From the human T2T-CHM13v2.0 reference genome, Homo sapiens, in assembly GCF_009914755.1 (NCBI RefSeq), contig NC_060933.1: a stretch of 64,000 nucleotides of DNA. One strand, given 5' to 3'. Below are positions 6,123-8,778 of the stretch, piece after piece (positions within the stretch are counted from its first letter, which is position 1; each line of letters starts with the position of its first letter). The position numbers and the translations under genes were made by a program. The notes under the pieces are model-generated. The model was given only the letters and a program-made list of their open reading frames with translations. It was not told the origin of the DNA and ran no database searches.

Positions 6123-6390
6123 GGAATTTTGATACATTTAACAATATTAAAAGCACAAGGAGGATTTCTCTGACCATAATGGCATTAAATTAAATAAAAG
6201 AATAAAAAAGAATTAGATATCTAAGACATCCAACTAGGTGAAAATTTTAAAATACACAATAAGTAATCAATGAGCTGGCCATGCATGGTGGCTCACGCCT
6301 GTAATCCCAACACTTTGAGAGGCCAAGATGGGAGGATCATTTGAGCTCAGGAGTTCAAGACCAGTATGGGCAACATAGCAAGAACACATC

Positions 6391-6910
6391 TGTGATGGTT
6401 AATACTGAATGTCAATTTGATTGGATTGAAGGATGCAAAGTATTGATCCTTGGTGTGTCTGTGAGGGTGTTGCCAAAGGAGATTAACATCTGAGTCAGTG
6501 GGCGGGGGAAAGCAGAGGCACCCTTAATCTGTTGGGCACTATCTAATCAGCGCTGCCAGCAAACATAAGCAGGCAGAAAAACATGAAAAGGTGACACTGG
6601 CTTAGCCTCCCAACCTACATCTTTCTCCCACGCTGAATGCTTCCTGCCCCCAGAACATCAGACTCCAAGTTCTTCAGTTTTGAGACTTGGGCTGGCTCTC
6701 CTTGCTCCTCAAGCTTGCTGACAGCCTATTTTGGGAACTTGTGATTGTGTAGGTTAATACTTAATAAAGTCATATATATATATATTAAAAAATAGATATT
6801 CTCTCTATGTATGTATATATGTATATATATGTGTATATATGTATATGTGCATATATATATATATACATCTCCTATTAGTTCTGTCCCTCTAGAGAACCTT
6901 GACTAATACA
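6391..6910 (+). mobile_element. MLT2A (HERV-L) 5' LTR
   Basis: Starts 'tgtgatggttaatactga', ends 'ctctagagaaccttgactaataca', and carries the internal (TA)n tract typical of MLT2A. Confidence 0.93.
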
Positions 6911-7745
6911 GACTTTGGTACCAGGAATGGTTTTAGAGGAACAGAATATTAAGGATGGAGTTCTTTCGTTGGTTTTGGGATTTCTGGAGTTGGCTGCTTA
7001 ATACAATTAGACCCAAAAATGTTAAGGATTCTACTTCTAATAGTATGGAAAACCCTGATAGTCCTTGGCATAAACTGTTTAGAATTATGCAAAATAAATG
7101 CATTTGACTCTCCTGATTCAGCACTCATGAGAGACAAGGAGTTTAGTGACTCTATGCTTAATACCTTTGATCATATGTGGAGAGCCAAGGTACGTAATGA
7201 AGCTGGTTGGTTGCTCCTAAGTTCAGTGGACAAAGTGATAAAAGAAAATGATGAACTCAGGGATTCTGTCTCCTGGCTTCAGAAGCAGATACTGAGCCTC
7301 AAATCTGCCAAGATTGCCCTGAGTGAGAATCTTATCTCCTGTAGAGAAAGAGCTGAAATTGGAAAAACAGACACAGCTCTTATCATGCAAGTGGCTGACC
7401 TGCAATGAAAGGTGCATCCCAGCCTCGCCAGGTATCTACAGTTAAAGTGAGGGCATTGATTAGAAAAGAATGGGACCCTGCAACTTGGGACGGGGATATG
7501 TGGGAGGACCTTGATGAAGCTGGGGACGCTGAGTTTATAAGCTCTGATGAAACTTTTTTGCCAAAAGAAACAGCTTCCCCATCTCCAGTAGTGGCAACAT
7601 CCCCTCCCCAACTCGTGCTGCCATCAGCCTTTCCACCTTTGTCTGAGGAGATGAACCCTGCTCTGCCAGAGGCAATGGTGATGGCCTCCCCTGAGGCAGT
7701 TGCCAGGCAAAATAATATTGATTCTCCTCAGGTGCCACCCCCAAC
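6911..7745 (+). pseudogene. HERV-L internal fragment: PBS plus disrupted gag 5' part
   Basis: PBS 'tggtaccaggaatgg' at 6916. ORFs 7019..7408 and 7405..7890 carry ERVL Gag motifs (GWLLLSSVDKV, VSTVKVRALIRKEWDPATWDGDMWED), frameshifted and truncated. Confidence 0.9.
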
Positions 7746-7747
7746 TT

Positions 7748-8124
7748 CCCACTTCTGGTACCAATTTACTGTATTAGTCCATTTTCAGGCTGCTGATAAA
7801 GACTTACACAAGAATGAGAAGAAAAAGAGGTTTAATTGGACTTACAGTTCCACATGGCTAGGGAGGCCTCAGAATCATGGCAGGAGGTGAAAGGCACTTC
7901 TTACATGGTGGCAGCAAGAGAAAAATGAGGAAGAAGCAAAAGTGGAAATCCCTGATAAACCCATCAGATCTCATAAGACTTATTCACTATCATGAGACTA
8001 GCATGGGGAAGACTGACCCCCATGATTCAATTACCTCCCCTTAGGTCCCTCCCATAACACATGGGAATTCTGGGAGATACAATTCAAGTTGAGATTTGGG
8101 TGAGGACACAGCCAAACCATATCA
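7748..8124 (-). mobile_element. THE1 (probably THE1A) 5' LTR (7770-8124) plus PBS only (7748-7769)
   Basis: 'tgtattagtcc...gccaaaccatatca' is the reverse complement of a THE1 LTR. It is preceded by 'cccacttctggtaccaatttac', the reverse complement of the THE1-int start and PBS. Confidence 0.92.
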
Positions 8125-8778
8125 CCATCTCTATGGGGAAAAAAAAAAAATTCTTTAATTAGCTGGGCATGGTGGAGCATCCCTATAGTCCTAGCCACTC
8201 AGGAGGCTAACGCAGGAGGATGGCTTGAACCCAGGAGATCGAGCTTATAGTGAACTATGACCATATCATTGCAGTCAAGCCTGGGCAAGCAAGATCCTGT
8301 CTCTGGGAAAAAAAAAAAAAAAGCAATCAGTGAAAGAAGAAATCACAAAGGAATTATATTATAAAATAATTTGAATTGAATGATAATGAAAATACAAGAT
8401 ACCAAAATTTATGGGATAAGATAAAGCAGTACTTGGAAGAAAATATATAGCTTTAAATGCCTATATTAGAAAAAAAAAAGACTAAAATTGATCATGAGTG
8501 ACCACCTTAAGAAATCAGAAAAAGAAGAGCAAAATTAAGCCCAAAGTAAGTAGAAGAAAAATATATAAAACAATGAAAATCAATGAAAGAGAAAACAAAA
8601 AAAATAGAGAAAATCAGTGAAATTAAGAGTTGACTTTTTGTAAAGTTTAGTAAAATTAAGAAGCTTCATCAGGCTGATCAAGAATAAGAGAAAATACAAA
8701 TAACCAGTATCAGAGGAACTAAAAAAAGGATATCACTATGAATCCTACTGACATTAAAAATAGTAAGAAATCCTCAGG

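What the first reader, a model, noticed from the sequence alone, without database searches (positions are those of the whole stretch)
6386..8129. Single-integration HERV-L x THE1 hybrid: two different 5' LTRs facing inward, one TSD, junction at the end of the THE1 tRNA-Leu PBS
Seen in sequence: the host AluJ is colinear across the insert and has a 5-bp duplication (acatc 6386-6390 / ccatc 8125-8129, 4 of 5 matching). The left end is the U3 'TG' end of an MLT2A LTR, followed by PBS and about 835 bp of HERV-L internal sequence. The right end is the U3 end of an inverted THE1 LTR. The THE1 part is the LTR, a 6-nt spacer and 'cccacttctggtacca' (7748-7763), then nothing more. In the intact THE1 at about 36990-37022, THE1-int continues past the PBS, which serves as an internal control. 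Established: LTR plus about 18 nt of copied tRNA is plus-strand strong-stop DNA. 'ccc-ac-t(c/t)ctggtacca' is the tRNA-Leu(UAA) 3' end. MaLRs are non-autonomous and presumed to use ERVL enzymes, and this class makes 5-bp TSDs. Inference: a THE1 strong-stop DNA mis-transferred onto nascent HERV-L plus-strand DNA through C-run microhomology ('ccacccccaac' in gag). That gave a linear DNA with two U3 ends, which was integrated in one event. This would be physical evidence that HERV-L and THE1 RNAs were reverse-transcribed in the same particle.
Basis: partly seen in the sequence, partly recalled or inferred. Interest (0 to 1): 0.8.

Follow-up and report, generated by a model that had tools for sequence, protein, structure and literature searches.

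The report
Inverted HERV-L/THE1 hybrid, one insertion
This is an old, broken retrovirus fossil in which pieces of two different element families face each other and share one insertion scar, which suggests that one enzyme complex handled DNA copies of both families at the same moment.

Summary
At window 6391-8124 a complete HERV-L-type LTR plus 835 bases of internal sequence (+ strand) abuts a complete THE1-type LTR with spacer and primer-binding stretch (- strand). Both outer ends are first bases of LTRs. The host Alu is colinear across the insert with a 5-base duplication, 4 of 5 identical.

HERV-L-like kin stop matching at 7745-7750 and THE1-like kin at 7742-7752, while both kinds of kin run on. 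One integrase-type event with two U3 ends is therefore the best reading. Sequential insertion would need two base-exact deletions.

The strong-stop reading is allowed but not proven. The join lies in a 7-9-base microhomology (7742-7750) shared by both families.

Ages do not conflict: LTR pairs of close kin have the same median distance, 0.127. I estimate roughly 30-55 million years. The remnant has no envelope gene and is far from whole.

"Same particle" stays an inference, because host end joining, before or after a two-donor integration, gives the same product. Orthologs and a genome-wide scan could not be done.

The parts
6277..6390 (+). Left piece of the host Alu. I call it J-type from recalled diagnostic bases; this was not tested against a library.
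   Evidence: Aligned apart with six other Alu copies of the window.
6386..6390 (.). Left copy of the 5-base target-site duplication (host bases).
   Evidence: It occupies the same five Alu columns as 8125-8129, and 4 of 5 bases are identical.
6391..6910 (+).
   Evidence: Kin 5' LTRs and 4 of 5 kin 3' LTRs begin to match at 6391. The inner edge at 6910 shares 11 of 14 bases with the inner edge of the right LTR.
6772..6865 (.). TA-rich microsatellite inside the left LTR.
   Evidence: Tandem Repeats Finder reports period 2 and 47.5 copies. Kin give short TA-type hits at the same LTR position.
6911..7745 (+). HERV-L-type internal stretch: a 5-base spacer, its own primer-binding stretch (6916-6933), the leader and the first part of the core (gag) gene. 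The gene is cut short by the join and is broken: it is read in at least two frames and no frame is open throughout.
   Evidence: 86-90% identical to kin. Its own primer-binding stretch matches tRNA-Leu(TAA) at 12 of 15 bases and is followed by CCA.
7742..7750 (.). Junction zone: a microhomology shared by both parent families. The breakpoint lies somewhere inside it. The two middle bases (7746-7747) match neither family in most kin.
7746..7769 (-). THE1-type primer-binding stretch (7746-7763, 18 bases) and 6-base spacer (7764-7769).
   Evidence: Matches tRNA-Leu(TAA) at 12 of 15 gene-encoded bases and is followed by CCA. THE1-like kin match the tRNA at 13-15 of 15. Layout.
7770..8124 (-). Complete THE1-type (MaLR) LTR of 355 bases, with its U3 end outward.
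   Evidence: 38 kin hits at 88-91% identity. Edges at 7770 and 8124.
8125..8129 (.). Right copy of the 5-base target-site duplication (host bases).
8125..8320 (+). Right piece of the same host Alu, reaching its A-tail.
35108..37390 (-). Internal control, not part of the hybrid: a full-length THE1-like element inside another Alu with its own 5-base duplication.

Best explanation
One integrase-catalysed event inserted a linear DNA whose two ends were both U3 ends. One end came from an incomplete HERV-L copy (LTR, primer-binding stretch, leader, start of the core gene). The other came from a THE1 copy made of only the LTR, the spacer and the primer-binding stretch.

The THE1 piece has the make-up of plus-strand strong-stop DNA, to within 4-5 bases. 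I think its free 3' end, the tRNA-copied stretch, paired with a nascent HERV-L plus strand at a short shared string. Each strand was then completed on the other, and the product was integrated into an Alu with the 5-base stagger typical of this class.

Shown: the anatomy, the single duplication, the flush ends, the break zones, the microhomology and the compatible ages.

Inferred: that the join was made by reverse transcriptase before integration, and hence that both RNAs were copied in one particle.
For: - Single duplication: the Alu pieces overlap by exactly 5 columns.
- Flush ends: kin alignments begin at 6391 and end at 8124. Both outer ends start with the same two bases read inward, and 8 of 14 bases are identical.
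- HERV-L side: 22 of 38 long hits end at 7745, 2 at 7750 and none later. In 8 kin the internal sequence runs on for at least 200 bases (kin against kin 76-88%), while window 7746-7945 sits at background, 56-62%. L009 was left out because its match stopped at 7719.
- THE1 side: the left edges of 7 kin that carry the primer-binding stretch fall at 7742-7752. Beyond it, kin against kin score 85-93% and the in-window control 76-80%, but window 7546-7745 only 52-57%. L014 and L017, which are LTR only, were left out.
- tRNA: tRNA-Leu(TAA) was fetched by its RefSeq place. Kin match it at 13-15 of 15 bases.
- Microhomology: a mean of 6.66 of 9 positions match in the true register, against 2.33 (highest 4.34) in 120 shifted registers. 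Exact runs of 7-8 bases occur in 18 of 56 kin pairs.
- Position of the THE1 break: shared 7- and 8-mers between a THE1-like element and the left part are common, 289 and 74 position pairs. Microhomology alone therefore does not explain why the THE1 break sits in a 9-base zone (0.4% of the element) around the strong-stop end.
- Ages: LTR-pair K2P distance is 0.081-0.158 (median 0.127) in 5 HERV-L-like kin and 0.116-0.135 (median 0.127) in 3 THE1-like kin.
- Uniqueness: among the 39 of 11688 candidates that were scored, only the self hit spans the join.
Against: - The shared string reaches 4 bases beyond the 18-base tRNA copy. 3 of 7 THE1-like kin match all 4 of those bases, 3 match 3 and 1 matches 2; all 8 HERV-L-like kin match all 4. 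A pure strong-stop end does not need that, so it is either chance (about 1 in 256 in a fixed register, my estimate) or a sign that the THE1 strand was a few bases longer.
- Bases 7746-7747 match 0 of 2 in 7 of 8 HERV-L-like kin and 0 of 2 in 5 of 7 THE1-like kin. One HERV-L-like kin matches 1 of 2 and runs on to 7750, so a single later substitution may be enough to explain them.
- The window's terminal-branch length differs by part: left LTR 0.085, internal 0.061, right LTR 0.043. With transversions alone the values are 0.033, 0.013 and 0.014. The left LTR and the internal part must be equally old, so this spread measures noise, but it is not small.
- The duplication is imperfect (4 of 5).
- This is one case only. 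No orthologs were seen. Kin are the best-scoring few of thousands, which biases distances downward, more so for THE1.
- Nothing in the sequence tells reverse-transcriptase joining from host end joining.
Confidence: 0.55

Rival explanations
1. Two-donor integration followed by host repair. One intasome held the U3 end of an incomplete HERV-L cDNA and the U3 end of a THE1 strong-stop-stage cDNA, and inserted both in concert into the Alu, which gives the 5-base duplication. The two free inner ends were then joined by host microhomology-mediated end joining. The variant in which host end joining came before integration belongs here too.
For: This gives the same anatomy: one duplication, flush processed ends, and a 7-9-base microhomology at the join, which is a typical length for end joining. 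Concerted integration of two separate donor ends is known from test-tube work. That is recalled; of the papers I saw only the listing.
Against: It needs a chromosome break held together by two cDNAs until repair. It explains the THE1 break at the strong-stop end only if the THE1 partner was a strong-stop-stage intermediate, so it shares most assumptions with the best explanation. No sequence feature favours it.
Confidence: 0.2
2. A template switch from a longer THE1 strand. The THE1 plus strand had already made its normal second jump and grown a few bases into THE1 internal sequence. It then switched onto a HERV-L plus strand at the shared string. The product is a chimera made by reverse transcriptase, but not a strong-stop DNA in the strict sense.
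For: It accounts without chance for the 4 shared bases beyond the 18-base tRNA copy.
Against: It needs a switch within the first 4 bases after the jump. The THE1 homology never passes 7742 in 7 of 7 kin.
Confidence: 0.12
3. Sequential events: an ordinary HERV-L provirus and an ordinary THE1 were inserted one into the other, or side by side, and were later trimmed by deletions.
For: Nested LTR elements and deletions are common. Both families were active in the same period.
Against: The THE1 part has no duplication of its own. Its U3 end abuts the host Alu 5-mer that pairs with the 5-mer at the HERV-L U3 end. Two deletions, each exact to the base at an LTR terminus, would be needed. No further HERV-L-like piece lies elsewhere in the window.
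Confidence: 0.05
4. A chance look-alike or an assembly artefact.
For: Only one assembly was seen. The duplication is 4 of 5, which two random 5-mers reach with a probability of about 0.016 (my calculation).
Against: The two 5-mers fall on the same five Alu columns, with both Alu pieces in the same orientation and order. Both halves are diverged like old kin.
Confidence: 0.02

Closest known systems
Complex LTR-retrotransposon insertions made by aberrant template switching (Sabot and Schulman 2007, PMC1950507; I read the abstract and Results section and ran one term search)
   Same: Two parent copies are fused before insertion. A single pair of family-typical 5-base duplications serves as the argument for one integration. 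Co-packaging of two RNAs is the proposed cause.
   Different: Those elements are head-to-tail, come from one family, are complete, and have normal U3 and U5 ends. The paper contains neither 'inverted' nor 'opposite orientation'. Here the parts are head-to-head, come from an autonomous and a non-autonomous family, are both truncated, and both ends are U3 ends.
Plus-strand strong-stop DNA and the second strand transfer of normal reverse transcription (review PMC6894440, passages seen)
   Same: The THE1 part runs from the first U3 base through the LTR and spacer to the tRNA-copied primer-binding stretch.
   Different: The normal transfer lands on the element's own minus strand. Here the partner is a plus-sense HERV-L strand, which gives an inverted join. 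The end cannot be fixed to base 18; it lies within 7742-7750.
Ordinary nested insertion of one LTR element in another
   Same: Two LTR families lie next to each other on opposite strands inside an Alu.
   Different: The inner element has no duplication of its own, the outer element does not resume on the far side, and one duplication spans both.
Partial and rearranged MERV-L and MaLR insertions in mouse germ-line mutations (review PMC6466679, passages seen)
   Same: These are class III elements inserted as partial, internally rearranged copies. The review notes that two of four such cases involve rearrangement of the element.
   Different: Those cases come with host deletions and their order of events is unclear. 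No two-family hybrid is described in the passages I saw.

Membership tests
ERV-L (HERV-L, class III endogenous retrovirus): left part | Primer-binding stretch complementary to the 3' end of a tRNA-Leu | tested here: met
   Window 6916-6933 matches the last 15 gene bases of tRNA-Leu(TAA) at 12 of 15, is followed by CCA, and matches tRNA-Leu(CAA) at 9 of 15 and tRNA-Leu(AAG) at 2 of 15.
ERV-L (HERV-L, class III endogenous retrovirus): left part | Kin carry a pol gene with an integrase nearest to foamy-virus integrase | tested here: met
   Pfam rve scores 44.8 and 41.2 bits (cut-off 32.6) in two kin. The best solved-structure matches are foamy-virus integrase entries, E 8e-5 to 2e-4. These matches are weak.
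ERV-L (HERV-L, class III endogenous retrovirus): left part | A dUTPase stretch after the integrase (a feature I recall for HERV-L) | tested here: inconclusive
   Pfam dUTPase scores 20.7 bits, below the cut-off of 22, in 1 of 2 kin. Solved dUTPases match at E 7e-4 to 2e-3.
ERV-L (HERV-L, class III endogenous retrovirus): left part | No envelope gene | tested here: met
   In one kin only about 0.6 kb lies between the dUTPase-like stretch and the 3' LTR. [quoted passage not shown] The window copy ends inside the core gene.
ERV-L (HERV-L, class III endogenous retrovirus): left part | LTR of the MLT2A1/MLT2A2 kind | not testable with these tools
No repeat-family library was on hand. Kin LTRs are 80-87% identical.
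MaLR of the THE1 kind: right part | Short non-autonomous element with LTRs of about 355 bases and no room for pol | tested here: met
   Three kin span 2141-2318 bases end to end (worked out by hand). The in-window control spans 2283 bases. The LTR here is 355 bases.
MaLR of the THE1 kind: right part | Primer-binding stretch for tRNA-Leu, and an LTR inner end like that of ERV-L | tested here: met
   Kin match tRNA-Leu(TAA) at 13-15 of 15. The inner edges of the two LTRs share 11 of 14 bases.
MaLR of the THE1 kind: right part | Subfamily (THE1A to THE1D) and a distribution limited to simians | not testable with these tools
   No family models and no other primate genomes were available. The statement that THE1 is simian-only comes from PMC10735291.
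Plus-strand strong-stop DNA as the source of the THE1 part | Starts at the first base of U3 | tested here: met
   5 of 9 kin stop at 8124, and 2 of 3 far-side LTRs stop at 8124.
Plus-strand strong-stop DNA as the source of the THE1 part | Ends after exactly 18 bases copied from the tRNA | tested here: inconclusive
   The break lies within 7742-7750, which includes the 18-base point (7745|7746). The shared string reaches 4 bases past that point.
Single-integration complex element | One duplication of family-typical length around the whole, with processed LTR termini at both ends | tested here: met
   The control element also has a 5-base duplication.
Single-integration complex element | Either an empty site or the whole composite in other species | not testable with these tools
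   No other primate genome was in reach.
Ordinary nested insertion | The inner element has its own duplication and the outer element resumes beyond it | tested here: not met

The most novel reading that the evidence does not exclude
This locus is a physical fossil of a HERV-L RNA and a THE1 RNA being reverse-transcribed together in one particle. A THE1 strong-stop DNA landed on a growing HERV-L strand, and an ERV-L integrase then inserted the two-headed product through two U3 ends. It would be the first direct sequence evidence that THE1 (MaLR) elements rode on the ERV-L machinery. It would also be evidence that this integrase accepts a U3/U3 pair in the germ line.
Probability: 0.4. Interest if true: 0.7.

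Novelty: new variant of a known kind. Interest (0 to 1): 0.6.

Why it matters
MaLR elements make up about 4% of the human genome and carry at most a gag-like frame, so they are said to be unable to replicate on their own (PMC10735291, section 3). That ERV-L supplied the enzymes is a standing presumption. As far as I saw, it rests on shared features: gag homology (review passage), the same tRNA-Leu primer site, and LTR inner ends that share 11 of 14 bases.

A single insertion that joins a HERV-L end and a THE1 end shows that DNA copies of both families met one integrase complex at one moment. This goes beyond resemblance. It also gives a search image for a genome-wide count: an inverted LTR plus primer-binding stretch of a MaLR joined to ERV-L internal sequence under one duplication.

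If the locus stays a single case, it remains a curiosity of aberrant reverse transcription.

Tried and rejected
NAMING BY PROTEIN. Two open pieces of the window's core-gene fragment gave no Pfam family above its cut-off; there were four coiled-coil-type hits below cut-off for one piece and none for the other. One piece had no solved-structure relative at E up to 1 and no Atlas hit of 0.9 or more, the best being 0.86. The family name therefore rests on the pol pieces of kin, the tRNA site and the layout.

LOCAL BLAST OF THE ALU PIECES. It did not reach the join, so I replaced it with a multiple alignment of the pieces kept apart.

DATING WITHOUT A CONSENSUS. Terminal-branch estimates from three-way distances are noisy and biased low for THE1, because the kin are the best 9 of 7000 candidates. 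I lean on LTR pairs of kin instead.

REJECTED READINGS.
- The C-run as the pairing site.
- THE1 internal sequence to the left of the join.
- Any likeness between the two LTRs as a whole: there was no hit at E 1e-5.

NOT DONE.
- Orthologs in other primates: no such genomes were in reach.
- Subfamily typing: no repeat library was available.
- The viral-contig scan, search_dna_similar, the search for homologous proteins and the structure tools were not used. The first two hold no human repeats. The third cannot see full-length kin of a fragment.
- Supplements of papers were not opened. The insertion lists of PMC10735291 are in its supplement and might list this locus.

PRINT SEARCHES FOR AN INVERTED TWO-FAMILY HYBRID. 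Searches gave no such report among the papers listed. Subscription journals are not covered.
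Full report
WHAT IS THERE. Window 6391-8124 is an insert inside a host Alu. I aligned the two Alu pieces (6277-6390 and 8125-8320) apart against six other Alu copies of the window. The left piece ends five columns after the right piece begins, so five Alu bases are present twice, at 6386-6390 and 8125-8129, and 4 of 5 are identical. Local BLAST had failed to reach the join.

The insert has two halves on opposite strands.

Left half (+ strand):
- a complete LTR at 6391-6910, which contains a TA-rich microsatellite at 6772-6865;
- a 5-base spacer;
- a primer-binding stretch at 6916-6933;
- internal sequence up to 7745.

Right half (- strand):
- a complete 355-base LTR at 7770-8124;
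- a 6-base spacer at 7764-7769;
- an 18-base primer-binding stretch at 7746-7763.

Nothing else of the second element is present. As whole sequences the two LTRs do not resemble each other: there was no hit at E 1e-5. Their inner edges, however, share 11 of 14 bases. Their outer ends share 8 of 14 bases and the same first two bases.

ARE THE ENDS AND THE JOIN REAL? I searched the whole reference with the composite. 39 of 11688 candidates were scored, and only the locus itself spans the join.

38 other long hits are HERV-L-like. 17 of them cover the LTR plus internal sequence at 80-85% identity, and 21 cover mainly the internal part at 86-90%. Of the 38, 22 end at window 7745, 2 at 7750, 14 a few bases earlier, and none later.

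The 17 LTR-bearing hits start at query 2-10, and 11 of them at query 6, which is window 6391. The 3' LTRs of five kin, fetched as far-side pieces, start to match at 6391 in four cases and at 6398 in one.

In eight kin the internal sequence runs on for at least 200 bases past the point aligned to 7745, with kin-to-kin identity of 76-88%. The window beyond that point scores 56-62%, which is background for that scoring. L009 was left out because its match stopped at 7719.

A second search, with 7746-8124 as query, scored 39 of 7000 candidates and gave 38 THE1-like hits at 88-91% identity. In the nine kin that were saved:
- the match ends at 8124 in five, at 8121 in one and at 8125 in one, and runs 5 and 10 bases into the flank in two;
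- its left edge is at 7770 in the two kin that are LTR only, and at 7742-7752 in the seven that carry the primer-binding stretch.

Beyond that stretch the seven kin agree with each other at 85-93%, and the in-window control element agrees with them at 76-80%. Window 7546-7745 agrees at only 52-57%.

THE tRNA. I fetched the tRNA-Leu(TAA)1-1 gene by its RefSeq place and confirmed it with ARAGORN. Its last 15 gene-encoded bases match four THE1-like kin at 13-15 of 15, against 9-11 of 15 for tRNA-Leu(CAA). Three kin with a 2-base insertion were left out of that count.

The composite's own THE1-side stretch matches both tRNAs at 12 of 15. The HERV-L-side stretch matches TAA at 12 and CAA at 9. All are followed by CCA. 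That CCA is added to tRNAs after transcription, and that plus-strand strong-stop DNA copies 18 tRNA bases, is established knowledge. The second strand transfer is described in PMC6894440 (passages seen).

THE JOIN IN DETAIL. The two families share a short string exactly at the join: the four bases that follow the 18-base stretch in THE1-like kin, plus the first bases of that stretch, also stand in HERV-L-like kin at the point where they stop matching.

- In the true register, THE1-like and HERV-L-like kin agree at a mean of 6.66 of the 9 positions 7742-7750. In 120 shifted registers the mean is 2.33 and the highest value 4.34.
- Exact runs of 7-8 bases cross 7745|7746 in 18 of 56 kin pairs.

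The breakpoint can therefore lie anywhere in 7742-7750.

Bases 7746-7747 match 0 of 2 in seven of eight HERV-L-like kin and 0 of 2 in five of seven THE1-like kin. One HERV-L-like kin matches one of the two and runs on to 7750. One later substitution on such a source would be enough to explain them, but a scar of the joining step is also possible.

Shared 7-mers and 8-mers between a THE1-like element and the left half are common, at 289 and 74 position pairs. Microhomology alone therefore does not explain why the THE1 side breaks within a 9-base zone, 0.4% of the element, around the strong-stop end.

FAMILY.

Tests for the left half:
- The window's core-gene pieces gave no named family.
- Kin of the left half carry an integrase core (Pfam rve, 44.8 and 41.2 bits against a cut-off of 32.6).
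- In one of two kin, a dUTPase-like stretch follows (20.7 bits against a cut-off of 22). About 0.6 kb then remains before the 3' LTR, which leaves no room for an envelope gene.
- Solved dUTPases match at E 7e-4 to 2e-3.
- The nearest solved integrases are foamy-virus entries, E 8e-5 to 2e-4.

Together with the tRNA-Leu site and the 5-base duplication, this fits ERV-L. A review states that ERV-L are spuma-like and env-less (PMC11359688, passages).

Test for the right half: its kin are 2141-2318 bases long end to end (worked out by hand), and the in-window control is 2283 bases. That is too short for pol, as expected of MaLR. PMC10735291 says MaLR carry only a putative gag frame (section 3).

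The core-gene fragment in the window is cut short by the join, is read in at least two frames against an open stretch of a kin, and has 8-27 stops per frame, so no frame is open throughout. The remnant is old, far from whole and has no envelope gene. Nothing called for stopping and referring the locus.

AGE. I built no consensus.
- LTR pairs of close kin give K2P distances of 0.081-0.158 (median 0.127) for five HERV-L-like elements and 0.116-0.135 (median 0.127) for three THE1-like elements. The in-window control gives 0.160. The nearest relatives of both halves therefore integrated over the same span.
- The window's own terminal branches, from three-way distances, are 0.085 (left LTR), 0.061 (internal) and 0.043 (right LTR). 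The kin means are 0.082, 0.062 and 0.056. With transversions alone the window values are 0.033, 0.013 and 0.014.
- The left LTR and the internal part are one piece and must be equally old, so their spread is as large as the spread between the two LTRs. I see no sign of two ages.
- Half of 0.127 gives about 29 million years at 2.2e-9 substitutions per site per year, and about 42 million years at 1.5e-9. Both rates are recalled.
- Papers put THE1 after the simian-tarsier split (under 70 million years) and its fossils at more than 40 million years (PMC10735291, passages). They put MLT2A1/2 at about 65-45 million years ago, with HERV-L extinct by about 40-30 (PMC11359688, passages).

I place the event at roughly 30-55 million years ago, in a simian ancestor and after the host Alu. 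Cross-species dating could not be done.

MECHANISM. One duplication around both halves, with processed LTR termini flush against it, means one integrase-type event acted on two U3 ends.

Sequential insertion followed by trimming would need two deletions, each exact to the base at an LTR terminus. The THE1 part has no duplication of its own, and HERV-L does not resume anywhere in the window. I give that reading about 5%.

How the two halves were joined is inferred. My first choice (0.55) is that the 3' end of a THE1 plus-strand strong-stop DNA paired with a nascent HERV-L plus strand at the shared string, and that each strand was completed on the other. That requires both templates in one reverse-transcription complex.

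Rivals I cannot exclude:
- a two-donor integration, or a join before integration, made by host microhomology-mediated end joining (0.2);
- a switch from a THE1 strand that had already grown a few bases past the primer-binding stretch (0.12). This would explain the four extra shared bases without appeal to chance.

Under all three, a HERV-L DNA end and a THE1 DNA end met one integrase complex.

COMPARISON WITH WHAT IS KNOWN. The closest described kind is the complex LTR-retrotransposon insertion made by aberrant template switching and recognised by a single 5-base duplication (PMC1950507, Results read). Those cases are head-to-tail and come from one family, and the paper has no mention of an inverted arrangement.

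Partial, rearranged MERV-L and MaLR insertions are noted in mouse (PMC6466679, passages).

Eight searches of the paper library listed no inverted hybrid between an ERV-L and a MaLR. Subscription journals and paper supplements were not searchable. I rate the locus a new variant of a known kind.

LIMITS.
- This is one locus in one assembly.
- Kin are the best-scoring few of thousands.
- No orthologs were in reach.
- Family names are unverified.

Noticed in passing
window 6772-6865: A TA-rich microsatellite lies inside the left LTR (period 2, 47.5 copies). Kin give short TA-type hits at the same LTR position on both strands, so it looks like a length-variable feature of the family rather than a private expansion.
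   Followed up: partly
window 35108-37390 (- strand): A full-length THE1-like element of 2283 bases sits inside another Alu with its own 5-base duplication. Its LTR-pair K2P distance is 0.160, and it is only 75-77% identical to the hybrid's right LTR, so it belongs to an older or different subfamily.
   Followed up: partly
L013, L015, L016 (THE1-like kin), primer-binding stretch: Three of seven kin share a 2-base insertion inside the primer-binding stretch. It is an inherited marker in a stretch that is expected to be reset from the tRNA in each cycle.
   Followed up: no
L015 and L016, flank next to the U3 end: The matches of two THE1-like kin to the window run 10 and 5 bases past the LTR end into the host flank. 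This may be chance, or it may hint at a target-site preference.
   Followed up: no
L022 (chr6 stretch fetched for tRNA-Leu genes): ARAGORN called a tRNA-Gln(CTG) and the tRNA-Leu(AAG) gene, but not the intron-bearing tRNA-Leu(CAA)1-2 that RefSeq places there. I used the RefSeq bounds for that gene.
   Followed up: no
window 12989-13075: The RNY4P18 pseudogene appears in the given annotation. I did not look at it.
   Followed up: no
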